Sequence record: OR885871 | DNA length: 64,000 nt | Direction: 5' to 3' (one strand) | From: Escherichia phage vB_EcoM_JN03 | Part shown: piece by piece, positions 7,975-59,853 of the stretch | How positions within the stretch are numbered: the first letter of the stretch is position 1 | Layout of the letters: each line of letters opens with the position of its first letter | Program-made: the position numbers and the translations under genes | Notes under the pieces: model-generated | What the model was told of the DNA's origin: nothing | The model's input: only the letters and a program-made list of their open reading frames with translations | Database searches by the model: none

Positions 7975-8439
7975 ATGGCGCGTAATACGCTGGACATCTT
8001 AAAACTTTCAGCTGTCAACGATGAGGCCAGCATTGTTGACTGTATGGTTGAAGTTCAATTGAACCAAGACAAACCAGGGATTTTCCTGGGTATCAAGGAA
8101 ACGCTGAGTCGGATAGGGGTTAACACTCGTCAAGAGCCTAACACCTTGTATCAAACGTGCCATATTCTGCATAAATTTGGCAGATATCACATCGTGCATT
8201 TCAAGCATTTGTTCATGCTAGATGGGCACTACAACGGCTTTACGCGTGAAGATGTCCTGCGTATGAATCGGATTATACGGCTTCTGGAGCAATGGAATAT
8301 GGTTAAGATCTTGCATCCGGAACAAATAACCGAAGTGGCTGACATGTCTCGGATCAAAGTTGTAAAACATGACCAAGTTTCTGAGTGGAAATTGGTTCCA
8401 AAATACACCATTCGCCCAAGTCGGGCAAAAAGCGAATAA
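7975..8439 (+). CDS. regA: translational repressor RegA
   Basis: ETLSRIGV...LYQTCHILHKFGRYHIVHFKHLFMLDGH...WKLVPKYTI matches the T4 RegA pattern; conserved position after gp62. Confidence 0.8.
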   Translation: MARNTLDILKLSAVNDEASIVDCMVEVQLNQDKPGIFLGIKETLSRIGVNTRQEPNTLYQTCHILHKFGRYHIVHFKHLFMLDGHYNGFTREDVLRMNRIIRLLEQWNMVKILHPEQITEVADMSRIKVVKHDQVSEWKLVPKYTIRPSRAKSE

Positions 8440-10727: not shown

Positions 10728-12746
10728 ATGGCAGAATTCAAACCCTTCGCAACGGCAGTTAATAACAACGTGCTGGCGATGTCCGCAACTGGTCTGTTCA
10801 TGACCAATATCGATAAAGATGCTCTTTGGGATCTGTATCTGGAATCTTTCCCTGCTGGTACCAACCCGCTCTACCGTGAGCGTACCGAGCACGACTGTAC
10901 CTGCTGTAAACAATTCATCCGTAACATCGGCGGTGTGGTCACCATCGACTCCGACCTGAACGTGATTTCCATCTGGGACAACATTGATCTGGGTAATGAA
11001 TATGACGTGGTGGCTGCGGCGCTGTCGGCGTATGTCAAACAACACGCAATCGTCGATGTTTATTTTAACGATTCTGCCAAAGTCGGCCTGTCTCACAATC
11101 ACGAATCTGGTGAAGATGGCAAAATCCGTACTTATAATCATTTCCATACCCAATTACTTGGTAGCTATGTTCTGCGTCCGGACGCAATCGCTTCGAAAAA
11201 AGGTGAAATCCGCCAGGCTATTGAATTGTTTGAACGCGGTCTGCGTGAAATTACTCTGGAATCAGCTGAAATCGTTCTGGAACTGATTGACCAGAATTCT
11301 CTGTATCGCGGCGCAGAACACAAAGCAGCAGTGAAGGGATTTGTTGAAACCAAAAAGGCATATGAACAAGTCCCCGAATCAGCCCGTTCTCTTTGGGCAT
11401 GGCATACTGGATACCGTTCAAACAATCATGTTCCACACGGCATCCGTAACACAGTTATCGGCACTCTGCTGACAGATATCAGCGAAGGCGTGGAACTGGA
11501 AAAGGCTGTTAAATCGTTTGAATCCAAAGTTGCTCCGGCGAACTACAAACGTCCGACAGCGCTGGTTTCAAAATCCATGATCGAAAACGCTCAGAAAGAA
11601 GTTATTGCTCTGGGTTTGGAAGACTCACTGGCGCGTCGTTATGCGGTTTATGATGATCTGACAATCAACAACGTTCTGTTCGCAGATCTGGCTGCTCAGA
11701 AAGCGATGGATCCGTTTGCACAGCTGGCCGCCGAAGTGAAAACTCCGACCAAGTCCCTGGAAAAAGTTGAAGAGATCAGCGTTGATGATTTCCTGAGCAA
11801 TGTTCTGCCAAAAGCGCATTCAATGGAAGTGCTTGTAGAGAATTCTCATACTAGCAACCTGATGTCCCTGGTTGCTCCGGCGAACCCAGATGCGCCTAAC
11901 TTGTTCAAGTGGAACAACGGTTTCTCCTGGTCTTACAATGGTGAAGTGGCCGATTCCATTAAAGAACGTGTAAAGGCTGCTGGCGGTAAAGTTGACGGGT
12001 ATCTGCGCGTTTCCTTGGCGTGGCACAATAACGACGACCTCGATCTGCATATGTTCAACAACATGGAGCACGTTTACTTCCGCGATCGCCGCTCTATGAC
12101 AGGTGCCCATCTGGATATCGATATGAACGGTATGGATGGTATTGATCCAAACCGCGCTCCGGTGGAAAATATCATCTTTACAGATGAAAGCAAGCTGCGC
12201 GATGGTGAATACCGTTTCGAAATCCACAACTACAATCAACGTGAAAAAATCGACGAAGGGTTTGAAGTAGAAGTAGAATACAAAGGCGCAACGCATCGTT
12301 TCAGCCATCCTGGCCTGAAAGATCAGGGGCGTATCACTGCAGTCATCCTGACTGTTAAAGACAAACAAGTTGTTGGCATTAAGTCCGAACTGGCTAATGT
12401 TGATAAGTCTAAAGAAGTTTGGGGTATCAAGACTGCGACCTTCCAGAAAGTACAGCTGGTCCTGAACTCACCAAACCATTGGGATGGCGAGCAGACAGGC
12501 AACAAGCACGTGTTCTTCATCCTGGAAGGTTGTGCTAATCCTGAAGGTACTCGTGGTTTCTACAACGAATATCTGAAGCCAGAACTGGATAAACATCGTA
12601 AGGTTTTTGAAATGTTGGGTAGTAAAATGAAAGTCCAGCCGAATGAAAACCAACTGTCCGGTCTGGGATTCTCGACGACGCAACGCAACCACGTGTTCGT
12701 CAAAGTGTCCGGCGCGTTTAACCGTACTGTAAAAGTCATTTTCTAA
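10728..12746 (+). CDS. large hypothetical protein, 672 aa, codon-optimised
   Basis: AGGAAG RBS; strongly host-optimal codons; Cys cluster HDCTCCKQF; acidic segments WHNNDDLDLH and HLDIDMNGMDGID; no Walker motifs. Confidence 0.7.
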   Translation: MAEFKPFATAVNNNVLAMSATGLFMTNIDKDALWDLYLESFPAGTNPLYRERTEHDCTCCKQFIRNIGGVVTIDSDLNVISIWDNIDLGNEYDVVAAALSAYVKQHAIVDVYFNDSAKVGLSHNHESGEDGKIRTYNHFHTQLLGSYVLRPDAIASKKGEIRQAIELFERGLREITLESAEIVLELIDQNSLYRGAEHKAAVKGFVETKKAYEQVPESARSLWAWHTGYRSNNHVPHGIRNTVIGTLLTDISEGVELEKAVKSFESKVAPANYKRPTALVSKSMIENAQKEVIALGLEDSLARRYAVYDDLTINNVLFADLAAQKAMDPFAQLAAEVKTPTKSLEKVEEISVDDFLSNVLPKAHSMEVLVENSHTSNLMSLVAPANPDAPNLFKWNNGFSWSYNGEVADSIKERVKAAGGKVDGYLRVSLAWHNNDDLDLHMFNNMEHVYFRDRRSMTGAHLDIDMNGMDGIDPNRAPVENIIFTDESKLRDGEYRFEIHNYNQREKIDEGFEVEVEYKGATHRFSHPGLKDQGRITAVILTVKDKQVVGIKSELANVDKSKEVWGIKTATFQKVQLVLNSPNHWDGEQTGNKHVFFILEGCANPEGTRGFYNEYLKPELDKHRKVFEMLGSKMKVQPNENQLSGLGFSTTQRNHVFVKVSGAFNRTVKVIF

Positions 12747-17667: not shown

Positions 17668-17696
17668 ATCCCCAACGTTTGTTGGGGATTTTTACT
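17668..17696 (+). terminator. terminator hairpin (repeat A, copy 1)
   Basis: ATCCCCAAC-gttt-GTTGGGGAT 9-bp stem followed by TTTTTACTTTT. Confidence 0.6.
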
Positions 17697-17704
17697 TTTA
17701 GGGG

Positions 17705-17733
17705 TTTACTTCTATAAGGCAAATGCGTATTAT
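17705..17733 (+). promoter_or_regulatory. T4-type early promoter (GTTTAC -35, 17-bp spacer, TATTAT -10)
   Basis: GTTTACT at 17704-17710, 17-nt spacer, TATTAT; copy 1 of a repeated cassette. Confidence 0.55.
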
Positions 17734-17782
17734 TGAATTCATCGGGCGGGGCGTTCCCGTTCATTGAAAGAAGGTATATATT

Positions 17783-18013
17783 ATGTCTGCTGTATCACGC
17801 GTTGTTGACCTCACCCCATTTTGCCTGAACAATATTGCTAACCCTAAATTGGTATTGTTTAAAGATCCCTCTAATTTCTGCTGGCTGGCAAGTTGTGATA
17901 CCCACAACGGACGTCGTGCTGTTTGGGAGTTTCCCGCAACTGATGAAGGTAGAATTTCCGCTATAAGAAAATTAGAACTGGAAAATTCAAGCCGAGAAAT
18001 TAAACAGGCATAA
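17783..18013 (+). CDS. small protein, 76 aa
   Basis: AAGGT RBS; bracketed by repeated terminator-promoter cassettes. Confidence 0.45.
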   Translation: MSAVSRVVDLTPFCLNNIANPKLVLFKDPSNFCWLASCDTHNGRRAVWEFPATDEGRISAIRKLELENSSREIKQA

Positions 18014-18023
18014 CTTTTATTAA

Positions 18024-18088
18024 ATCCCAACAAACGTTGGGGATTTTTACTTTTAGGGGTTTACTTCTATAAGGCAAATGCGTATTAT
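18024..18088 (+). repeat. repeat A copy 2: terminator hairpin plus early promoter cassette
   Basis: About 65 bp nearly identical to 17668-17733; stem 18024-18044 with loop gttt flipped to aaac; TTTACT 18060-18065, TATTAT 18083-18088. Confidence 0.6.
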
Positions 18089-18139
18089 TCAATAACTGGC
18101 GAACGATGGGTTCACCAGGTTGAAAGGTAAGATTATATC

Positions 18140-18379
18140 ATGAAGAACAAAATGGTAGAAACTTCAGTGGAGATTGATCGTAATTGGGGCTTGCTCCGCG
18201 CTAAAGGGTTCCGTCGTGTGTATGCGACCAAAGAAGTATATGCCCAGCGCCGCGATGTTATCATCAGCAAGAAGGGAAAAGATTGGGTTGCCGAAGAAGT
18301 CGATGTCGAAACAGGCGTCGTCGGAAAGGTGAAAGCCAAGGCCGCGATCCTCTTCGCTCTTCTGAAGCACATCAGTTAA
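18140..18379 (+). CDS. small basic protein, 79 aa
   Basis: AAAGGTAAG RBS; own promoter from repeat A copy 2. Confidence 0.45.
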   Translation: MKNKMVETSVEIDRNWGLLRAKGFRRVYATKEVYAQRRDVIISKKGKDWVAEEVDVETGVVGKVKAKAAILFALLKHIS

Positions 18380-24013: not shown

Positions 24014-24096
24014 ACGCTTTATTCAATAGTATTTGTTAGGTAAGCTGTAGTCCTCTTGTAGTGAAACATCGTAAACAACCAACTGGAGTAATCCGA

Positions 24097-24375
24097 ATGA
24101 ACCGTACTGATTTTATCGCCCACATCGCCCAAACCCAGGGTATGACCAAAGGCGAAGCAGAGAAGATCGTGGCATCCTTTATCAACGGCGTGAAAACTGC
24201 AGTCGCAGCTGGCCAATCTGTCCAATTCGTAGGCTTCGGCGCGTTCGAAGTTAAACATCAGGAAGCGCGCACTGGCCGCAACCCGCTGAACGGACAACAG
24301 ATCCAGATCGAAGCGAAAAATGTAGTTAAATTCAAAGTCGGTGAAGGTCTGAAAGCTGCTGCCAACGGCCAGTAA
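24097..24375 (+). CDS. HU/IHF-family DNA-binding protein
   Basis: MNRTDFIAHIAQ...FVGFGAFEVKHQEARTGRNPLNGQQIQIEAKNVVKFKVGEGLK matches the HU fold including the GRNP arm motif; GGAG RBS. Confidence 0.8.
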   Translation: MNRTDFIAHIAQTQGMTKGEAEKIVASFINGVKTAVAAGQSVQFVGFGAFEVKHQEARTGRNPLNGQQIQIEAKNVVKFKVGEGLKAAANGQ

Positions 24376-33928: not shown

Positions 33929-33972
33929 AGGGGCTTTCGCCCCTTTACTTCTTCAATATCCTTCCCTATACT
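33929..33972 (+). promoter_or_regulatory. terminator hairpin fused to early promoter (CTTTAC, N17, TATACT)
   Basis: AGGGGC-tttc-GCCCCT hairpin then TTTACT 33944-33949, 17-nt spacer, TATACT 33967-33972. Confidence 0.55.
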
Positions 33973-34020
33973 TCATTCCATAAGCAGTACGACACCAACT
34001 TGAAACGAAGGAACTATATT

Positions 34021-34380
34021 ATGGCTATCACCACAAAAACTGAATTGAACGCGATCCTGAAAGAAGCTGGCTTCGGTAGTATCAAACGCCAGGGCAAGGT
34101 TTTACGCGATGGCGGTAAAATCGTAAAGGGTATCATGTTGGGAAGTACTGGCCCGTTGAGCATCAGCTCCCCTCAGTATGACAATCTTCGTAAACTGGCG
34201 CGTGAACTTCTCCAAGAAGACCTCCATATCACGACGCAAGAAACCAATTATGTGGTTTTGGAATGCAACAAATTCATCGTCAGCCTTTACATCTGCAGCA
34301 CCCGCTCATATCCGGTGTCTGAAGGTTATGACCCAATGTATCTGACCCATTATGCTCAGGTTACTGTCAAAGTAAAATAA
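34021..34380 (+). CDS. hypothetical protein, 119 aa
   Basis: GAAGGAA RBS; terminator-like hairpin downstream. Confidence 0.45.
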   Translation: MAITTKTELNAILKEAGFGSIKRQGKVLRDGGKIVKGIMLGSTGPLSISSPQYDNLRKLARELLQEDLHITTQETNYVVLECNKFIVSLYICSTRSYPVSEGYDPMYLTHYAQVTVKVK

Positions 34381-34464: not shown

Positions 34465-36852
34465 ATGGCCATCCCATCTTTCTTGAACTTTCTTGAAGAG
34501 TCTAAACAATTAGACGAAGCGTTTAACTCATCCCCGTATGAATTGACATTCGGCAAGAAGAACGCTGGTGACATTTTCTTCACATTTGTTGATGAAGACG
34601 AAAAAGAATTCCGTATTCAATTCTATACCCCACAAGGTCTAGGCAAGAATGTTCGCCAAGTCTTTATCGGTCAGAAGCGTGGTTCCACATATCCCGATGC
34701 CATCGGTCGTTTCAAGAATCCAATGCGTGTTATCGCATCCATGATTGAAGCAACAAAGCAATTCATGGCGACGCCTTTGGGGAAAACCATTGACGGCTTT
34801 GCAATTAACTTCTCCAAGAAAGCATTGGAGCGTGGTGTTACCCTCCTGCCGAAGATTATCCGTCAGTCCGGCCTGAAGCAAAAGCTCAATGTCATGGACC
34901 TGACGTATACCCCTATCCCTGATCGTGCATTCGTATGGGTTGTGCGTAAAGGCAAGGATCCTGCTCAGGTATTCGATGGTCCGAAAATGAAAGGTGTCAC
35001 ATGGGATGATCCGGACAAAGTCGGTGACGTCCCGGTTCAGAACAATACTCCGGATGTGGGAGTTGTGGCTGGTTCTTCTGAAATCGAAGTCAACCGCGAT
35101 GACAACGGTTGGAAACTCACCAAAGCTAGTCGTACTCAGCCTATGCTGGTCTGGTCTGGTAAAGAACGTGGGCGGACTATTACCGCCAATATCGCACCTC
35201 ACGCGGATATACCTGGGGTGTATGCTGGTAGTATCATGAACGAGAAACGGATCCGCGCTCAATCTCCAGACGCTATTGTACGCCAACTGGGATTACCGCA
35301 GATCCCTGTGAATATTCTGAATGATTTCACCAAGCAGTCGTCCATCTTCTGGAAAGAGATGACGGGGGATTCTGGAAAAATAGACATGCAGAATTTGCCA
35401 AAAACAGGATCTGTGGATGACTTACGAAATCAGGGTTATATTGCTCGCCTTCTGGGGATTGTAGACACATATGCTCCACAACAGGTCGGTATGTATGCAG
35501 GTGAAAAACTAACACGAATCGGCGCGGGCAAATATCGTACTTCGGGTGGTCTGGACATTCAGGTTTATTTCTGGGGAATTGTCAACGGAAAACTTTCTGT
35601 AGAAGTAGTATCAGATTTGTCTGGTCATGACCAACTTATGCTGGAAGGAGATGTGAAAAACGCCGCTTATGAAATAGTGGGCGCAATCTCCCGTGCAGCC
35701 GATTCTCAATTTGCTGGAGAAGTAGAATGCCGTGTGGTTCCGATCAATGGTGCCCCATATCCGATTCAAAAAATTTCCCGTTCTCAGGGATATTCTTACG
35801 TTGATTGTGGTTCTTTCACATTGAAGATCGCTGACGCTCTGCTGAATCGGTTTACCTTGGGCAAGGCGGTCAAACTTGATCTGATGAAAGAGTTTCCTCG
35901 TACAACATTCAAAGTCCGCTATGATTGGCGTGGAAAAGATACTCTGTTGGTTCAATCTTCCGACGAGCGTACTATCTTTGGTGAAATCAACACCAATTCC
36001 AGTGAAAATGCAGTGATCACTGCAAACATCAAAGTGCCAAGCAATGCTAAATTTTTTGGTGAAACCGTTCATGGCTTCTCTGTAGCGTGGGATTTCCAGT
36101 TCCCTGCTGGTAGCAAGTTGCAAGCCGCAAGATTCGTTACCAACGTAACTTACGATTTTGATCGAAACAAAGCCAACATCACCACCATGTTGGCTGAAAA
36201 TGGTCGAAATGTAGTAGACAGCAATGGATATGATATTTCGTTGTCTGTCAAATCAGTGCAAGATGCATTGGATGAGATTTCTCGACGCCTGAAAGACGCG
36301 GCTTCGCAACTGAGCCACCTCAGTTCATCAAACTATAACCCTAACAATCTATTCCTGAATGACATCACTGTCAGTAAATTTGGCGCAATTATGTTCCAAG
36401 ACAAAGATTTGGCACAGTCCAGGAACCGCACGGCAGTCATTGATGCTCTGGCTCGGGCTAAAGATCAGGCTGCTGGAGGTAAGAATGCAGGTGATCTGGC
36501 CACCTATGCCGAATCCATTCGTGACAGCGCTCCTAATGGACGAGATCTGGATTGGCAGGTATACACAGCCAGTAATGGTACAGTTCTGAATGTTGCTTGG
36601 GATATCACTTTCCGTCGCAATACGACCGAAGGAGCATATCGTGAATTCAAGGATCAGATCAACCGTGCCAACCAATACCTGCAAACGGTATACAACGACG
36701 CGAAATCTAAAGGCTATAATCCTACCGTGCCAAATCTCATGACTCTTGAACGCGCTCGCCAATCCGACGAATGGGCTATGAGTAATGGCGATAGTGCATA
36801 CAGTGAATATGAACAATCGCTGGGCGGTAATCTTCAGATTAGTCTGAAATAA
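34465..36852 (+). CDS. large hypothetical protein, 795 aa
   Basis: AGGAGA RBS; contains LGLPQIPVNILNDF, echoed at the C-terminus of the next-but-one protein. Confidence 0.65.
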   Translation: MAIPSFLNFLEESKQLDEAFNSSPYELTFGKKNAGDIFFTFVDEDEKEFRIQFYTPQGLGKNVRQVFIGQKRGSTYPDAIGRFKNPMRVIASMIEATKQFMATPLGKTIDGFAINFSKKALERGVTLLPKIIRQSGLKQKLNVMDLTYTPIPDRAFVWVVRKGKDPAQVFDGPKMKGVTWDDPDKVGDVPVQNNTPDVGVVAGSSEIEVNRDDNGWKLTKASRTQPMLVWSGKERGRTITANIAPHADIPGVYAGSIMNEKRIRAQSPDAIVRQLGLPQIPVNILNDFTKQSSIFWKEMTGDSGKIDMQNLPKTGSVDDLRNQGYIARLLGIVDTYAPQQVGMYAGEKLTRIGAGKYRTSGGLDIQVYFWGIVNGKLSVEVVSDLSGHDQLMLEGDVKNAAYEIVGAISRAADSQFAGEVECRVVPINGAPYPIQKISRSQGYSYVDCGSFTLKIADALLNRFTLGKAVKLDLMKEFPRTTFKVRYDWRGKDTLLVQSSDERTIFGEINTNSSENAVITANIKVPSNAKFFGETVHGFSVAWDFQFPAGSKLQAARFVTNVTYDFDRNKANITTMLAENGRNVVDSNGYDISLSVKSVQDALDEISRRLKDAASQLSHLSSSNYNPNNLFLNDITVSKFGAIMFQDKDLAQSRNRTAVIDALARAKDQAAGGKNAGDLATYAESIRDSAPNGRDLDWQVYTASNGTVLNVAWDITFRRNTTEGAYREFKDQINRANQYLQTVYNDAKSKGYNPTVPNLMTLERARQSDEWAMSNGDSAYSEYEQSLGGNLQISLK

Positions 36853-36903
36853 GTCATAGCCCCTTCGGGGGCTAAATACATCAAAATCCTTAGGAGATCC
36901 ACG

Positions 36904-37449
36904 ATGAAACCGTTTATCGAATATTTTAAAGAACAAGCTCAACAACCGCAAACACATGGCGGCATACAAGGCAAAAGTGTAACCATCACCAAACAGGCCG
37001 ACGGAACCCAATGGTGTACTGGTGCCACCGTAACCCAGATCACTCCAGATAATCAGGCCGACATCTATAATCTGGAATTGACTAATGGCAACACCATCAA
37101 AGTGAAGCTAACTCCAGACCAGACCCACGGCATTACCCAAGGCCAAGAAGTCGTTGCCGTCCATGATGGGTTTGAATTCTTCTTCGGCAAGTCGGCTGAC
37201 AAAGGTCAGGTTACTGAAACGGAAGGCTGGCGTTTCGTCGGTGACCGTGGCGCTCATATTCTGATGTATGACGCAAAAGTTGGCGGTGCCTCCACTATCC
37301 TTCGCAGTCCAACAGATCGAACCAAATTTGTTGGTGGTCTCATCAACGGCAGAAAAATTTTGGGTAATTCCCCAGAAGAACTGGCGGCAAAATTAGGTCT
37401 TCCAAAAATTCCTGATAATTTATTAAAATCATTTTTTGGTAAAAAGTGA
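36904..37449 (+). CDS. hypothetical protein, 181 aa
   Basis: AGGAGA RBS; C-terminal LGLPKIPDNLLKSF motif. Confidence 0.5.
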   Translation: MKPFIEYFKEQAQQPQTHGGIQGKSVTITKQADGTQWCTGATVTQITPDNQADIYNLELTNGNTIKVKLTPDQTHGITQGQEVVAVHDGFEFFFGKSADKGQVTETEGWRFVGDRGAHILMYDAKVGGASTILRSPTDRTKFVGGLINGRKILGNSPEELAAKLGLPKIPDNLLKSFFGKK

Positions 37450-37504
37450 TTACAAAATACAATCCCCCTAAATACAGGGGGATTTTCTTTTAGGGGTAAA
37501 TATC

Positions 37505-37858
37505 ATGGTCAATGCGAGTATATTCATCAACCGTGGACTGCTTGCTATAGCCCACTCTCATGCCCTCCACTTCGTTACAACGTCCTATGCCAAGCACAAG
37601 GCGCTCGGGGAGTTCTACGGGGAACTGGAGGACTTGCTGGACACCTTTACGGAAGCGTATATTGGTGCGGGAGGTATATACATTCCAGGATTCGAGAACA
37701 TCAAATTGTACAATCCTGAACCGATATCGTATATCAACAGCGTGGTCATCGACGTTAATGGGATCTACAATCAGTGTGATAGTCATCTTCAAAATACGCT
37801 TGACGAAATCAAGACTCTGTGCTATCAAACGATTTACAAACTGAAGCAATTGTCTTAA
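37505..37858 (+). CDS. hypothetical protein, 117 aa
   Basis: ATG after a terminator-like hairpin with AGGGGT RBS. Confidence 0.45.
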   Translation: MVNASIFINRGLLAIAHSHALHFVTTSYAKHKALGEFYGELEDLLDTFTEAYIGAGGIYIPGFENIKLYNPEPISYINSVVIDVNGIYNQCDSHLQNTLDEIKTLCYQTIYKLKQLS

Positions 37859-39837: not shown

Positions 39838-39865
39838 AGGCCTCATTCTACGAGGCCTTTTAAAA
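39838..39865 (+). terminator. rho-independent terminator
   Basis: AGGCCTC-loop-GAGGCCT hairpin followed by TTTTAAAA. Confidence 0.6.
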
Positions 39866-39902
39866 TACTTCAAAAATAATTTAAAAATTTATTGAAAAAG
39901 AC

Positions 39903-39931
39903 TTTACTCTTCAATAATCATGCACTATTAT
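39903..39931 (+). promoter_or_regulatory. T4-type early promoter (CTTTAC, N17, TATTAT)
   Basis: TTTACT 39903-39908, 17-nt spacer, TATTAT 39926-39931, about 80 nt upstream of the codon-optimised gene at 40009. Confidence 0.55.
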
Positions 39932-40008
39932 AGTTCACATAGGGCGGTACACAACACCCCGCCGAATGAAAAGTGAAACGACCCAACTACATTATGAGGA
40001 ATTACATC

Positions 40009-40497
40009 ATGGCTACTACCAAAACTCTGATCACCAACGGCACCATCTCTTTTGAACTGAACACCGAAGTTGCAAAAGTTGAAATGTTCCGCATCGCTCA
40101 GGCAGCTGGCTTCACTGGTGGCAAAACTTCCTTCATGAATCTGCTGAACGGCAAAGTGAAAGCGACCAACGGCTTCACCCTGGTAGAGCAGGTTGTCGTA
40201 GACAAAGCCGTGGTTGCCAAGACTGCTGACAAGGTTGGCATGCTGAAAGACCTGGGCCATGACATCCACGTTGTCGAAGCGAACACCGAAACTTACGGCA
40301 CCATCGTAGTCGGTAAAGGTCGCATTCAGCTGAACCCGCTGAACAACGGAACCTTCTCCGTGATGGTATTCCCGAAAAAGGGTTATGACAACAGCGATAT
40401 CGTGAAAGCCGCTGGCGGTGAAGCGAAATCCCAGTATGTCAAAATGGGTAAACTGAGCGCCGACGCAGTAGAAACTCTGGTGAACAAACTGGCTTAA
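40009..40497 (+). CDS. abundant-type hypothetical protein, 162 aa (strongly optimised codons)
   Basis: GAGGAA RBS 7 nt upstream; own early promoter; codon usage like gp32 and gp45; no recognisable domain. Confidence 0.6.
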   Translation: MATTKTLITNGTISFELNTEVAKVEMFRIAQAAGFTGGKTSFMNLLNGKVKATNGFTLVEQVVVDKAVVAKTADKVGMLKDLGHDIHVVEANTETYGTIVVGKGRIQLNPLNNGTFSVMVFPKKGYDNSDIVKAAGGEAKSQYVKMGKLSADAVETLVNKLA

Positions 40498-40547
40498 CCG
40501 CAAGGGGGAAACCTCCCCCTTTCAAAGTTTTGGTAGGAGAATGAGAC

Positions 40548-40736
40548 ATGAGTAGAGCAATTATCCAAGCCTCTCCTGGCGCTCTATGGGTTGCCGACCG
40601 AATTCCCAACGCGCACTTTCCTCAGTTCCAAGAGGAACTGGAACAAGCGATGTTGAAAATATTTGAAAAATATGGGTATGATTCCGAAGTTAGGACTTCC
40701 TTCAAAGAAATCATGCCTATCGTCGTAGTCAGATAA
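40548..40736 (+). CDS. small protein, 62 aa
   Basis: AGGAGA RBS; preceded by a GGGGG-aaacct-CCCCC hairpin. Confidence 0.4.
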   Translation: MSRAIIQASPGALWVADRIPNAHFPQFQEELEQAMLKIFEKYGYDSEVRTSFKEIMPIVVVR

Positions 40737-40805
40737 TCGACACTAAATCCTCAAGTTCGACTTTCACTTTAAATACCTTCGCATACATTGCGGAGGTATT
40801 TTCTT

Positions 40806-46323: not shown

Positions 46324-46368
46324 GCCCCTAACCCAGGGGCTTTACTTTTCAAAAACCTGGTTTATAGT
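46324..46368 (+). promoter_or_regulatory. terminator hairpin fused to early promoter (CTTTAC, N16, TATAGT)
   Basis: GCCCCT-aaccc-AGGGGC hairpin then TTTACT 46341-46346 and TATAGT 46363-46368. Confidence 0.5.
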
Positions 46369-46416: not shown

Positions 46417-46803
46417 ATGTATCTGAACACACCAGCCGTATTAGAAGCCACCATCTCTTTCCCTATCCAAGGCCTGGCGAAGTCCAGAGCGTTCCTTAAA
46501 CAAGTCCCCTTTGCGTTTAACGTCCACGGGGAGAGATACCCGCGCTCTATCCTGCGTGCCCTGCGTGATGCCCTGCGTAACGGGGCGGCGCTGACCAAGG
46601 AAGAGTTGCGATCTAAAGAAGTGCACATGATCGACCCGGAACTGTTATCTGAAGAACCAGAACTGTACCAAGATTTCCAAAACGACGCCCGTAAAGCTCA
46701 GCTGATGTACGAGAACGACCAGCTGATGTTCAAGAAGGGCGATGACGCTCTGTACGTGGTAGACAAGGGCACAAACCTGCCTCTGGTACTCTTCATCAAG
46801 TAA
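46417..46803 (+). CDS. hypothetical protein, 128 aa
   Basis: GAAGGA RBS. Confidence 0.5.
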   Translation: MYLNTPAVLEATISFPIQGLAKSRAFLKQVPFAFNVHGERYPRSILRALRDALRNGAALTKEELRSKEVHMIDPELLSEEPELYQDFQNDARKAQLMYENDQLMFKKGDDALYVVDKGTNLPLVLFIK

Positions 46804-46811
46804 CCCGACCA

Positions 46812-46857
46812 GCCCCTCATCGAGGGGCTTTACTTCTATAAATCCTGCGCTTATACT
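46812..46857 (+). promoter_or_regulatory. terminator hairpin fused to early promoter (CTTTAC, N17, TATACT)
   Basis: GCCCCTC-atc-GAGGGGC hairpin then TTTACT 46829-46834, 17-nt spacer, TATACT 46852-46857. Confidence 0.55.
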
Positions 46858-58062: not shown

Positions 58063-58091
58063 GTTTACATCTTCTAAAAAGGCAGTATATT
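58063..58091 (+). promoter_or_regulatory. T4-type early promoter (GTTTAC, N17, TATATT)
   Basis: GTTTAC 58063-58068, 17-nt spacer, TATATT 58086-58091, about 70 nt upstream of the ATG at 58159. Confidence 0.5.
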
Positions 58092-58158: not shown

Positions 58159-59118
58159 ATGTCCTATATTCTTCATATCGAGTCCGGCCTGAAATTTGAA
58201 ATTGATGGTAAAACCGCTGCTGATCTTCAAGCAGAAATCAAAGGTGCAGACCTTATCATTGGCAATGTAACATTACGCCGTATGATGGAAGGCGTCCTCC
58301 AGTCAGCCAACGGCTTTGAACTCATTGAAGGTCTGAGCCAGGAAGAGAAAGAAGAAACTCTCGAAGCTCTTGACCGCGCTGAAGCCGAAAAAGTTAAACC
58401 GACCGAAGATGCGGGGGTTAAACAGGGCGACGGTGAATCAAATCCGGTGATTGACGCCGAAGAAACGGTTGGGCAACCTGTCGGTGATCAAAATTCCCAG
58501 ACCGTCGAAGACGGTTCTCTTGAAGTCAACAAAGACGGTTCCATTTCCCTGGTAGTTGAAGGCGAAGAAGTTCTTGACGAAGAAGCGCAAGCCCGTGCTG
58601 AAGAAGTTCGCCGTCGCATGCTGGGCACAACCGTTGCTGAAGCAATCGCCGACGTTGAAAATCCGAAGGATGATCAGGCTTTAGCGAACGCGAAGGCGGT
58701 TCTGGCCAAGAAATCTTCTGAAATGCGCCCTGCATCTTCTACCGAAGAACGCAAGCGTCGTCATAACAAGCGTGAAGAAATGGTTGAAGCGGCTCGCGCA
58801 TCCAATTATGGTCCTATCCTGGCTGCGGTTGAATCGGGGGTTGTGCCTGGGGTTTATTTGAGCTATGTGAATCCGGATATGCGCTGGTTCCAGTTCCCTG
58901 TTACCGAATTGGCAGATGAAGCCAATCCACACGCCCGCACCAATACTTATGTTGATCTGGCGCCGATCGTTTCCGGCGGCTGGGGGTTCAGTCTGTATGT
59001 GAATGGTAAATCATTCACCAAACGCCAGAAAATCAAAGAAACTGATGCCGAATCTCTGGTGAAAGCAATCAATGAATGGTTACCACAGGCGTTGGCCGAA
59101 GCGAAAGCTGCTGCGTAA
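58159..59118 (+). CDS. acidic hypothetical protein, 319 aa, codon-optimised
   Basis: Own early promoter and downstream terminator; central region very rich in Glu/Asp. Confidence 0.55.
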   Translation: MSYILHIESGLKFEIDGKTAADLQAEIKGADLIIGNVTLRRMMEGVLQSANGFELIEGLSQEEKEETLEALDRAEAEKVKPTEDAGVKQGDGESNPVIDAEETVGQPVGDQNSQTVEDGSLEVNKDGSISLVVEGEEVLDEEAQARAEEVRRRMLGTTVAEAIADVENPKDDQALANAKAVLAKKSSEMRPASSTEERKRRHNKREEMVEAARASNYGPILAAVESGVVPGVYLSYVNPDMRWFQFPVTELADEANPHARTNTYVDLAPIVSGGWGFSLYVNGKSFTKRQKIKETDAESLVKAINEWLPQALAEAKAAA

Positions 59119-59145
59119 TTTAATTCAGAAGCGTTCAATAGATAA

Positions 59146-59175
59146 AGGGGCTGCTATAATAGCAGCTCCTTTTGT
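59146..59175 (+). terminator. rho-independent terminator
   Basis: AGGGGCTGCT-ataat-AGCAGCTCCT hairpin followed by TTTTGTTT. Confidence 0.6.
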
Positions 59176-59190
59176 TTATTGGAGCATGTC

Positions 59191-59853
59191 ATGTCTTATT
59201 CGCTCAAAGGGCTGTTGAAGCGCCCTGTGCATTTGTTTGTCAAACCACCTGCTGTAGAAGGGGAATATTCGGCACGAGGAGAGTTGTATTACATTAAAGG
59301 CTCCAATGGTAGTGGTAAGTCTACTGTGCCTTCTTATTTGGCGGAGAATGATCCTCAGGCGTATGTCGTAACCCATAACAGTAAGATCATGCTCACGGTT
59401 TGTCCATCTTACAATATTGTCTGTGTCGGTAAATATGACAAGTCTAAGTCCAAAGGGGTTGATTCTCTGAAGGATACTGAGCAGATGTTGTTCGCGTTGT
59501 CTATTGCTGACCAACCAGAATACCTGAAATATGATGTGATTTTTGAAGGCATCATTCCGTCTACATTATTGAGTTCTTGGATTCCCCGCCTGACACGCCC
59601 ACCACGTGAATTGGTCGTCCTCTTTATGGATACCCCTCTTGAAACCTGTATTGCCCGTGTTAAATCGCGTAACGGTGGCGCAGACTTCAATGAAAGTCTG
59701 GTGGTCGAGAAGTGGGAGAGAGTTCATGATCACCGTCAACGGCATAAAGGCTTGTTCCCTACCGTTCCCGCAGGTATGATGAAGTCCGATGGCCTGACTG
59801 TAGAGCAGGCTGTTTTTGCGTTTCTCAATCGTGATTTTGGGAGTATTGATTGA
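59191..59853 (+). CDS. P-loop kinase (candidate nucleotide or DNA-base kinase)
   Basis: Classical Walker A GSNGSGKST near the N-terminus; about 220 aa; first gene of the nucleotide-metabolism block. Confidence 0.6.
   Translation: MSYSLKGLLKRPVHLFVKPPAVEGEYSARGELYYIKGSNGSGKSTVPSYLAENDPQAYVVTHNSKIMLTVCPSYNIVCVGKYDKSKSKGVDSLKDTEQMLFALSIADQPEYLKYDVIFEGIIPSTLLSSWIPRLTRPPRELVVLFMDTPLETCIARVKSRNGGADFNESLVVEKWERVHDHRQRHKGLFPTVPAGMMKSDGLTVEQAVFAFLNRDFGSID

What the first reader, a model, noticed from the sequence alone, without database searches (positions are those of the whole stretch)
40009..40497. Two codon-optimised proteins of unknown function with dedicated early promoters (40009-40497 and 58159-59118)
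Both genes use very host-optimal codons, like gp32 and gp45, and each has its own GTTTAC/CTTTAC-type promoter and a terminator, implying very high early expression. Neither matches a family I recognise; the 319-aa protein has a strongly acidic central region and could be a DNA-mimic or chaperone-like factor.
Basis: partly seen in the sequence, partly recalled or inferred. Interest (0 to 1): 0.45.

Follow-up and report, generated by a model that had tools for sequence, protein, structure and literature searches.

The report
Paralogous early phage proteins, function unknown
Two strongly expressed, stand-alone early genes of a Vi1-like (Kuttervirus) phage encode related two-domain proteins from a phage-specific family with no characterised relative, so they are real and conserved but their role can only be guessed.

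Summary
The window is a Kuttervirus (Ackermannviridae) replication and nucleotide-metabolism region. P1 (40009-40497, 162 aa) has the highest codon adaptation in the window (CAI 0.67; median 0.26). P2 (58159-59118, 319 aa) scores 0.43, level with gp32 and gp45. Each has its own T4-early-like sigma-70 promoter, (C/G)TTTAC-N17/18-TAT(T/A)(A/T)T. These promoters are conserved across genera, and their position is kept in a distant Vibrio relative. P2 ends in a strong terminator. P1 ends in a conserved hairpin with a weak U-tract.

New here: P1 and P2 are paralogs. Both have a small N-terminal module (two strands, two helices, one strand), a linker of very different length, and a C-terminal alpha/beta sandwich. 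Metagenomic relatives combine a P1-type N-domain with a P2-type C-half. P2's acidic region is a disordered, length-variable linker followed by an invariant basic helix, not a rigid DNA mimic.

Best guess, at low confidence: abundant pre-replicative adaptor proteins that tether a nucleic-acid or polymerase-associated target to a partner. Moderately interesting. Function remains open.

The parts
39838..39858 (+). Intrinsic-terminator hairpin that closes the upstream primase operon (AGGCCTC-loop-GAGGCCT followed by TTTT)
   Evidence: Fold of -12.1 kcal/mol, z -4.3. Annotated as a terminator in Mutine and LIMEstone1. The stem is kept and the loop varies across genera.
39875..39931 (+). P1 promoter: an A/T-rich UP-like tract, a -35 element TTTACT (39903-39908; CTTTAC when read from 39902), a 17-nt spacer, and a -10 element TATTAT (39926-39931)
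   Evidence: upstream A+T 0.88. It is 87-92% identical in Limestonevirus and Taipeivirus. The Vibrio phage has TTGCGC-17-TATAAT in register.
39938..40008 (+). Putative 71-nt 5' UTR of P1, with a small 5' stem-loop (GGCGG/CCGCC) and a GAGGA Shine-Dalgarno sequence
   Evidence: It is 89-92% identical across three genera, which is more conserved than the coding sequence against Klebsiella phage May. The fold is not significant on its own (z -1.0). No Rfam match. The transcription start is inferred, not mapped.
40009..40497 (+). P1 CDS, 162 aa, pI 9.25. N-domain is aa 1-64 (40009-40200), a short linker follows, and the C-domain is aa 82-162 (40252-40494)
   Evidence: PHROG 3764 at E 5.5e-93. 61 homologs. 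AF2 mean pLDDT 84.9. CAI 0.666. dN/dS 0.10-0.40.
40502..40521 (+). Conserved G/C hairpin immediately after the P1 stop codon. Likely a partial terminator or 3' stabiliser, because the U-tract is weak
   Evidence: a 7-8 bp stem in the window, LIMEstone1, Klebsiella May and Vibrio 207E48.1, with different arm sequences.
40548..40736 (+). 62-aa ORF (PHROG 3594, unknown function), probably co-transcribed with P1
   Evidence: It has its own ribosome-binding site and no promoter of its own.
40773..40805 (+). Hairpin plus T-run that ends the P1 unit. It overlaps the ribosome-binding site of the endolysin gene
   Evidence: Sequence read. Annotated as a terminator at the homologous place in Mutine, May and LIMEstone1.
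58064..58091 (+). P2 promoter: -35 TTTACA (GTTTAC when read from 58063), a 16-nt spacer, -10 TATATT, preceded by AATAAAAAGTG
   Evidence: Conserved in LIMEstone1 and Klebsiella Menlow. Annotated as 'putative early promoter' in LIMEstone1.
58159..59118 (+). P2 CDS, 319 aa, pI 4.6. N-domain is aa 1-58 (58159-58332). The acidic disordered linker is aa 59-190 (58333-58728). The invariant basic helix ERKRRHNKRE and helical neck are aa 191-228 (58729-58842). The C-domain is aa 229-319 (58843-59115)
   Evidence: PHROG 3905 at E 3.5e-176. 225 homologs. Alignment. AF2 result. Charge. Linker statistics.
59144..59172 (+). Strong intrinsic terminator of the P2 unit
   Evidence: -30.2 kcal/mol, z -6.6. Annotated in Maynard, Menlow and LIMEstone1.
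59191..59853 (+). Neighbouring gene, not part of the unit: 5-hmdU DNA kinase. It is followed by the dUMP hydroxymethylase-type 'thymidylate synthase'. Its adjacency to P2 is conserved as far as the Vibrio relatives
   Evidence: Pfam PF18748 at E 2.4e-113. Synteny and plus 102 (Vibrio K471).

Best explanation
P1 and P2 are real, conserved genes found in nearly all Ackermannviridae. Each sits in its own transcription unit behind a strong host-sigma-70 promoter of the T4-early type, so both are probably made in large amounts before replication. This expression level and timing are inferred, not measured.

They are paralogs of one phage-specific two-domain family. Each has a roughly 60-aa N-terminal module (two strands, two helices, one strand) with a conserved helix-turn-helix-like G-x-x-G-(K/N)-(T/V)-(S/T) turn. 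A flexible linker follows, and then a roughly 85-aa C-terminal alpha/beta sandwich. P1 is the compact, basic form. P2 carries a 100-170 aa polyanionic disordered linker and an invariant basic helix in front of the C-domain.

Most likely mechanism, inferred only: they are stoichiometric adaptor or tether proteins of the pre-replicative period. One domain would contact nucleic acid or the transcription/replication machinery. The other would hold a protein partner. In P2, the acidic linker would modulate or auto-inhibit the basic helix.
For: Shown:
- Identity of the phage and conservation of the two genes.
- Codon adaptation.
- Promoter, terminator and their cross-genus conservation.
- N-domain homology between the families by profile-profile comparison without any bridging sequences: E 1.5e-5, probability 80%. 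An earlier comparison with narrower alignments gave E 7e-4.
- Bridging proteins P0205, P0206 and P0211 match the P1 profile at E 1e-15 to 1e-18 over profile positions 4-123/135. The C-half of P0205 aligns to P2 residues 185-293 at E 1e-7. It also hits P2-type loci in Aeromonas and Vibrio phages at E down to 2e-15.

Pointers toward a nucleic-acid or polymerase-associated role:
- P1 has pI 9.25, and the RKRRHxKRE helix of P2 is invariant.
- In relatives the N-domain is fused to a DUF3489-type winged-helix-like domain (E 3.2e-5, below Pfam's cut-off) or to short HTH-looking tails.
- Linker length ranges from about 15 to about 170 aa across the family, as expected for a tether.
- The genes are embedded among replication genes. 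P1-type genes sit next to the primase gene in Ackermannviridae and in Pseudomonas phage Cygsa01.
- P2 was seen at low level in virion preparations together with other DNA-associated proteins (PMC10892097).
Against: - There is no experimental expression or binding data.
- MotA is absent from the top 60 hits for P2.
- The HTH-like reading of the N-domain is by eye. No Pfam HTH model matches it.
- The AF2 alignments are shallow (38-43 sequences from one phage family).
- C-domain homology between P1 and P2 is only transitive. The direct profile comparison gives E 0.014.
- The CAI weights were recalled from memory.
- P2 is not needed for in-vitro thymidine hypermodification (PMC5889632), so its synteny with the kinase may be historical only.
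Confidence: 0.35

Rival explanations
1. P1 and P2 are abundant protein-binding inhibitors or chaperones of a host factor, acting in host takeover or anti-SOS/anti-defence. They would work like PsiB, T7 gp1.2 or secretion chaperones. The C-domain would clamp a host protein and no nucleic acid would be involved.
Confidence: 0.25
2. P1, and perhaps P2, is the missing activator of early-to-middle transcription in Vi1-like phages. It would be a functional analogue of T4 MotA: the N-domain contacts RNA polymerase or sigma-70, and the C-domain binds a promoter element.
Confidence: 0.12
3. P2 is a virion-associated protein, either packaged or ejected. The shared N-domain would be a targeting or assembly module.
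For: Sajous1 gp29, the P2 homolog, gave 10 spectra in CsCl-purified virions (PMC10892097). Virion proteins are scattered through this genome region: Sajous1 gp214-217 and LIMEstone1 ORF78-85.
Against: Ten spectra compare with 924 for the major capsid protein. The same data set also lists replication, lysis and terminase proteins. Neither homolog (ORF047, ORF073) is in the LIMEstone1 virion list. P1 was not detected in Sajous1. The promoters are of sigma-70 early type, and no TATAAATA-type late motif lies nearby.
Confidence: 0.08
4. P2 is a DNA-mimic anti-restriction or anti-nucleoid protein.
For: The linker has a net charge of -13 to -30 in all 120 homologs examined. Expression is early.
Against: The acidic stretch is predicted disordered (pLDDT 31-39). 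It varies in length and sequence, unlike what I recall of the rigid acidic surfaces of Ocr and ArdA. No family match was found. The conserved parts of the protein are the two flanking domains and a basic helix, not the acidic part.
Confidence: 0.07

Closest known systems
PHROG families 3764 (P1) and 3905 (P2), 'unknown function'
   Same: Full-length matches at E 5.5e-93 and 3.5e-176. These are the same proteins that are annotated as 'hypothetical' in roughly 260-280 Ackermannviridae genomes.
   Different: The two PHROGs are kept as separate families. Here they are shown to be paralogs of one two-domain family. That family also reaches Vibrio phages YC and Kuja, Erwinia phiEa2809 and Pseudomonas phage Cygsa01.
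T4 MotA (middle-transcription activator)
   Different: There is no sequence similarity. The N-domain fold differs. No AsiA partner is reported in these phages (PMC3184105). P2 does not retrieve MotA. Membership is not supported.
Type III secretion class I chaperones, the YbjN family and PsiB (secretion-chaperone-like alpha/beta sandwich)
   Different: There are no sequence matches. P1 and P2 carry an extra N-domain and linker. P1 is basic, whereas those chaperones are, to my knowledge, acidic homodimers encoded next to their effectors. The context here is a phage, with no secretion system.
T4 early promoters (the GTTTAC-type -35 class)
   Same: A (G/C)TTTAC -35 hexamer, a 17-18 nt spacer (counted from that hexamer), a TATAAT-like -10 and an A-rich upstream tract. 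In the window, the genes behind the best intergenic examples are small proteins of unknown function.
   Different: Timing has not been measured in any Ackermannviridae phage. LIMEstone1's authors labelled the P1 promoter 'middle'.
Ocr and ArdA DNA mimics
   Same: Early expression and a strong negative charge in P2.
   Different: In P2 the charge lies in a disordered, length-variable linker, not on a folded DNA-shaped surface. There is no homology.

Membership tests
T4 MotA family | N-terminal MotA_activ domain (Pfam PF09114; all-alpha and sigma-70-binding, as I recall it) | tested here: not met
   No Pfam hit at E up to 1-10 for P1, P2 or 39 relatives. AF2 predicts a module of two strands, two helices and one strand.
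T4 MotA family | C-terminal double-wing DNA-binding domain (Pfam MotCF PF09158) | tested here: inconclusive
T4 MotA family | Works with the co-activator AsiA at promoters that carry a MotA box near -30 | not tested
   Kutter et al. report no AsiA or MotA homolog in CBA120, ViI or AG3 (PMC3184105). I did not search for a promoter box.
Type III secretion class I chaperones / YbjN-like | Secretion-chaperone-like alpha/beta sandwich fold | tested here: inconclusive
Type III secretion class I chaperones / YbjN-like | Sequence membership (CesT, YbjN or related Pfam models) | tested here: not met
   No hit in Pfam or NCBIfam.
Type III secretion class I chaperones / YbjN-like | Small, single-domain acidic protein encoded beside its effector or secretion system | tested here: not met
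   Both proteins have two domains. P1 has pI 9.25. The neighbours are primase and endolysin for P1, and hmdU kinase for P2.
DNA-mimic anti-restriction proteins (Ocr, ArdA) | Folded scaffold that presents acidic side chains in a DNA-like array | tested here: not met
   The acidic region has pLDDT 31-39. Its length is 99-172 aa, and only its composition is conserved.
T4-type early (host sigma-70) promoter | -35 GTTTAC/TTGACA-like hexamer, a spacer of about 17 nt, -10 TATAAT-like hexamer, A/T-rich upstream tract | tested here: met
   The elements are conserved in register across genera.
T4-type early (host sigma-70) promoter | Transcription immediately after infection without any phage protein | not testable with these tools
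   I found no transcriptome for Ackermannviridae.
Rho-independent terminator | G/C-rich stem-loop followed directly by a U-tract | tested here: met
   P2: 59144-59172, met. P1: the hairpin at 40502-40521 is conserved, but its U-tract is interrupted or absent in Klebsiella and Vibrio relatives, so it is only partly met.
   P2 gave 10 spectra in Sajous1. P1 and P2 homologs are absent from the LIMEstone1 virion list. There is no homology to structural families.

The most novel reading that the evidence does not exclude
P1 and P2 are the long-sought regulators of pre-replicative transcription in Vi1-like phages. Kutter et al. report that these phages lack MotA, AsiA, Alt and ModA. On this reading, P1 and P2 form a new class of polymerase adaptor. 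A small helix-turn-helix-like N-module and a double-wing/chaperone-like C-module would be tethered by a tunable linker. The compact basic paralog and the acidic long-linker paralog would act as an activator/antagonist pair.
Probability: 0.12. Interest if true: 0.75.

Novelty: new variant of a known kind. Interest (0 to 1): 0.4.

Why it matters
Ackermannviridae are widely used for phage therapy, biocontrol and typing. Even so, how they switch from host to early and middle phage transcription has been an explicit open question since 2011 (PMC3184105). These two genes are among the most codon-adapted in the replication region. They are conserved from Vibrio to Salmonella phages. They sit behind a recognisable early-promoter class that earlier work on CBA120 could not define. 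That makes them obvious first candidates for knock-out, pull-down and structural work. Recognising that they are paralogs with a modular domain-linker-domain design narrows the experiments. It also merges two 'unknown' PHROG families into one.

Tried and rejected
- Sequence searches against the PDB, with single sequences and with profiles, gave nothing below E 0.09. The best hits were ribosomal P0 and eIF4G, which I take as noise.
- Pfam, NCBIfam and PADLOC gave no credible hit for P1, P2 or 39 relatives.
- A BFVD Foldseek search returned only uncharacterised family members: phiEa2809, Kuja and YC.
- A profile of the N-domain alone against the 5.8-billion-protein set gave one extra short protein.
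- The search for related loci with the bridging protein P0205 gave nothing.
- An Rfam scan of the whole window returned 0 matches.
- Three literature searches for an Ackermannviridae transcriptome or infected-cell proteome found nothing. One badly chosen ORF-number search was wasted.
- I considered that P2 belongs to the thymidine-hypermodification pathway because of its conserved adjacency to the 5-hmdU DNA kinase. I rejected this as a requirement for two reasons. Five other ViI genes suffice in vitro (PMC5889632). The kinase also occurs in M6-like, Bordetella, Rhizobium and Bacillus phages, none of which appeared among the records or proteins that matched the P family in the searches run here.
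- I considered a T4 late promoter. TATAAATA occurs only 3 times in the window and none is near these genes.
- I considered the alternative GTG start at 39973 for P1. I rejected it because homologs start at the ATG and the upstream stretch behaves as a conserved non-coding leader.
- The antisense 191-aa ORF at 39928-40503 is a shadow of the biased P1 frame.

Full report
**What the window is.** The DNA around both genes is 99-100% identical to Kuttervirus phages of the Ackermannviridae: E. coli phages 4HA11, CBA120 and PhaxI, and Salmonella phages BPS3 and Mutine. The Mutine annotation shows that the window covers the replication, recombination and nucleotide-metabolism region. It includes gp45, gp44/62, RegA, UvsW, the gp55-like sigma factor, gp46/47, primase, endolysin, PhoH, NrdAB, baseplate genes, gp32 and gp2.

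The gene I call P1 (40009-40497) is CBA120 orf104, Sajous1 gp1 and LIMEstone1 ORF073. The gene I call P2 (58159-59118) is CBA120 orf076, Sajous1 gp29 and LIMEstone1 ORF047. Both are 'hypothetical protein' in every record inspected.

**Checking the observation: codon usage.** I used the Sharp-Li E. coli relative adaptiveness table, written from memory because the Biopython copy was unavailable. I applied it to 86 greedily chosen non-overlapping ORFs.
- P1 has CAI 0.666, the highest value in the window.
- P2 has 0.428, 5th of the 86 listed ORFs and 6th once P1 is counted (P1 was scored separately).
- The median is 0.263.
- The sliding clamp gp45 scores 0.470, gp32 scores 0.438, and an HU/IHF-like protein scores 0.512.

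P1 also shows unusually low synonymous divergence. Against LIMEstone1, dS is 0.42 for P1 but 1.54 for P2 between the same two genomes. Both genes are under purifying selection, with dN/dS between 0.10 and 0.40.

**Checking the observation: promoters.** The consensus scan finds TTTACT-17-TATTAT at 39903-39931 and TTTACA-16-TATATT at 58064-58091. The pattern TTTAC-N16-18-TAWWWT occurs 5 times in the window against 0.94 expected, and none of 100 shuffles reached 5. Four of the five sites are on the + strand, each in front of a gene.

A looser scan adds sites at 33944, 46341 and 46829. The genes behind the four sites checked (17705, 18060, 33944, 46341) are small proteins with no Pfam match. This resembles the T4 early class.

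Conservation is the stronger argument. The 147 nt upstream of P1 are 92% identical in Limestonevirus and 88% in Taipeivirus. Against Taipeivirus that is more conserved than the coding sequence (68% amino-acid identity, pS 0.49). In the distant Vibrio phage 207E48.1 the sequence has diverged, but TTGCGC-17-TATAAT lies in register.

The P2 promoter (AAAGTGGTTTACA...TATAtT) is likewise kept in LIMEstone1 and Klebsiella Menlow. The Vibrio P2 ortholog again carries TTGCGC-17-TATAAT. The LIMEstone1 authors annotated a 'putative early promoter' before the P2 homolog and a 'putative middle promoter' before the P1 homolog.

**Checking the observation: terminators.**
- P2 is followed by a 13-bp stem and T-run at 59144-59172 (-30.2 kcal/mol, z -6.6).
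- P1 is preceded by a clean terminator at 39838-39858 (z -4.3).
- P1 is followed by a G/C hairpin at 40502-40521. This hairpin exists in four lineages with different arm sequences, but it has a poor U-tract.
- The P1 unit probably continues through a 62-aa ORF to the hairpin and T-run at 40773-40805.

**What the proteins are.** Neither protein matches Pfam, NCBIfam, PADLOC or any PDB sequence. They match only PHROG 3764 and PHROG 3905, both labelled 'unknown function'. Close homologs are confined to Ackermannviridae-type contigs.

The main new result is that the two are paralogs. By eye they share the N-terminal pattern AG(F/L)xxG(K/N)(T/V)(S/T)(F/L)xx(L/M)(L/M)xG...(N/C)GFx(L/V). The evidence is as follows.
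- Profile-profile comparison of the two families gave E 7e-4 with narrow alignments.
- It gave E 1.5e-5 (probability 80%, 51 columns) once the P1 profile was enlarged with distant members and the P2 alignment was left untouched.
- An exhaustive HMM search of 1.84 billion representative proteins with the P1 family found 38 relatives. Four of them (P0204, P0207, P0210, P0212) are large repetitive proteins that I regard as false positives.
- Some relatives are 190-270 aa long with long Pro/Ala-rich linkers.
- Three relatives (P0205, P0206, P0211) join a P1-type N-domain to a P2-type 'RKRR...AR' helix and C-domain.
- P0205 matches the P1 profile at E 1.5e-15 over profile positions 4-123. Its C-half aligns with P2 residues 185-293 at E 1e-7. 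That C-half also hits the P2-type loci of Aeromonas and Vibrio phages.
- Direct C-domain similarity between P1 and P2 is weak (E 0.014), so C-domain homology rests on these intermediates and on structure prediction.

**Predicted structures.** AlphaFold2 with family alignments gave the following.
- P1: mean pLDDT 84.9, with elements E2-9, E14-16, H23-33, H39-46, E56-64, a linker, then E86-89, E96-101, E104-110, E116-122, H128-135, E144-149, H151-161.
- P2: N-domain with the same order of elements at pLDDT about 85; residues 80-140 at pLDDT 31-39; helices through 141-227; and a C-domain at pLDDT about 90 with four to five strands and a long terminal helix.

P1 is basic (pI 9.25). P2 is acidic (pI 4.6), and its linker (residues 59-190) has pI 4.2. 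In contrast, ERKRRHNKRE at residues 196-205 is invariant across the P2 family. Across 120 P2 homologs the linker is 99-172 aa long and always has a net charge of -13 to -30.

The C-domain is therefore a generic two-layer alpha/beta sandwich of the secretion-chaperone/YbjN type. No assignment to a functional family is justified. BFVD returns only uncharacterised relatives.

**Context and other evidence.**
- P2 is always followed by the 5-hmdU DNA kinase (Pfam PF18748, E 2e-113) and the dUMP hydroxymethylase-type thymidylate synthase homolog. This holds even in Vibrio phages.
- However, the ViI hypermodification was reconstituted in vitro with five other gene products (PMC5889632). The kinase also occurs in phage groups that did not appear among the P-family matches in my searches.
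- P1-type genes lie next to the primase gene both in Ackermannviridae and in the unclassified Pseudomonas phage Cygsa01.
- In CsCl-purified Sajous1 virions, gp29 (the P2 homolog) gave 10 spectra against 924 for the capsid protein. Replication, lysis and terminase proteins appear in the same list. P1 was not seen (PMC10892097).
- Neither homolog is among the 39 virion proteins of LIMEstone1 (PMC3296691).
- In a few distant relatives the N-domain is joined to a DUF3489-type, winged-helix-like domain instead (P0216; E 3.2e-5, below Pfam's cut-off). In others (P0214, P0217) it is joined to short tails that look like helix-turn-helix motifs by eye.
- Kutter et al. state that Vi1-like phages have no MotA, AsiA, Alt or ModA, and that their early and middle control is unknown (PMC3184105).
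- I found no transcriptome for this phage family.

**Interpretation.** The following points are shown:
- Two conserved, selected, codon-optimised genes.
- Each has a conserved sigma-70-type promoter.
- They are paralogs with a domain, variable linker, domain design.
- The acidic part of P2 is a disordered linker.

High early abundance is inferred.

My preferred mechanism is that both proteins are stoichiometric pre-replicative adaptors. They would tether a nucleic-acid or polymerase-associated target to a protein partner. In P2 the acidic linker would modulate the basic helix. This rests on charge, the invariant basic helix, the tether-like variation in linker length, the fusions to HTH-like domains, the genomic setting and the weak MotA resemblance. 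I give it about 0.35.

The rivals are:
- A pure protein-binding inhibitor or chaperone of a host factor (0.25).
- A true MotA analogue (0.12).
- A virion-associated protein (0.08).
- A DNA mimic (0.07).

**Comparison with the known, and novelty.** The promoters belong to a known kind, the T4-type early promoter. The proteins belong to no characterised family. Membership in the MotA family, the secretion-chaperone families or the DNA-mimic families is either not met or inconclusive (see the membership table).

Existence of the genes is already recorded in hundreds of genomes. What is new is the paralogy, the domain architecture, the extension of the family beyond Ackermannviridae, the definition of the promoter class, and the unusually conserved P1 leader.

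I rate the finding moderately interesting (0.4). It gives well-defined candidates for an acknowledged gap in Ackermannviridae biology, but nothing here demonstrates a function.

Noticed in passing
window 17670-17737 and 18026-18092: A roughly 60-nt cassette is present twice in identical form. It consists of a terminator hairpin (CCCCAACG..GTTGGGG plus T-run) followed by a GTTTAC-N18-TATTAT promoter. Each copy precedes a small ORF of unknown function (17783-18013, 76 aa; 18140-18379, 79 aa). The promoter class is the same as for P1 and P2.
   Followed up: partly
window 33944-33972, 46341-46368, 46829-46857: Three further TTTACT-16/17-TATnnT promoter-like sites lie on the + strand. Two of them precede small ORFs with no Pfam match: 34000-34380 and 46417-46803. 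Together with P1 and P2 they suggest a definable early-promoter class. Kutter et al. (2011) reported being unable to identify one in CBA120.
   Followed up: partly
window 59191-59853: This gene is a 5-hmdU DNA kinase (Pfam HMUDK_HMUD1, E 2e-113; the ViI gp67 class). Many GenBank and RefSeq records annotate it as 'terminase small subunit', 'baseplate hub', 'thymidylate kinase' or 'putative kinase'. The PHROG 800 label appears to propagate the terminase name.
   Followed up: yes
window 24061-24375: An HU/IHF-family DNA-binding protein (PF00216, E 1e-29) has CAI 0.51, the second highest after P1, and its own terminator. It could be an analogue of SPO1 TF1, which as I recall is an HU-type protein preferring hmU DNA. 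That would fit a phage with 5-hmdU-derived DNA.
   Followed up: partly
window 10728-12746: A 672-aa ORF with CAI 0.50, among the most codon-adapted in the window, has no Pfam or NCBIfam match and is 'hypothetical' in Mutine. It does not seem to be in the LIMEstone1 virion list, but I did not map its LIMEstone1 ortholog.
   Followed up: partly
window 39862-40008: The non-coding leader and promoter of P1 are 88-92% identical across three genera. Against Taipeivirus this exceeds the conservation of the coding region. There is no Rfam match, and the leader's predicted fold is not significant. This suggests a regulatory constraint beyond the promoter hexamers, for example a translational operator. 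A RegA homolog is encoded at 7975-8439.
   Followed up: partly
window 40009-40497 compared with L010 and L011: The phylogenetic signals of the two genes disagree. P1 is 93% identical to the Limestonevirus protein but 68% identical to the Taipeivirus protein. P2 is 59% identical to Limestonevirus and 72% identical to Taipeivirus. With a dS of only 0.42, this could mean a recent exchange of the P1 cassette between genera, or extreme codon selection.
   Followed up: partly
window 34465-37858: A cluster inside the 'replication' region corresponds to Sajous1 gp214-217 and probably to the LIMEstone1 ORF78-85 cluster. It includes a 795-aa protein and a ferritin-like 117-aa protein. These are abundant in purified virions: 196, 32, 20 and 10 spectra in Sajous1. 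They are structural proteins of unknown role.
   Followed up: no
window 39928-40503, minus strand: A 191-aa antisense ORF spans the whole of P1 and is longer than P1 itself. A length-based ORF picker chooses it in place of P1. It is most likely an artefact of the strong codon bias of P1.
   Followed up: partly
locus L013 (Pseudomonas phage Cygsa01) 4998-5822: A 274-aa family member with a long Pro/Ala-rich linker lies directly upstream of the primase gene in an unclassified 166-kb phage. That phage's annotation refers to Delftia phage phiW-14. tblastn reports a second matching place in the same genome, which I did not inspect.
   Followed up: no
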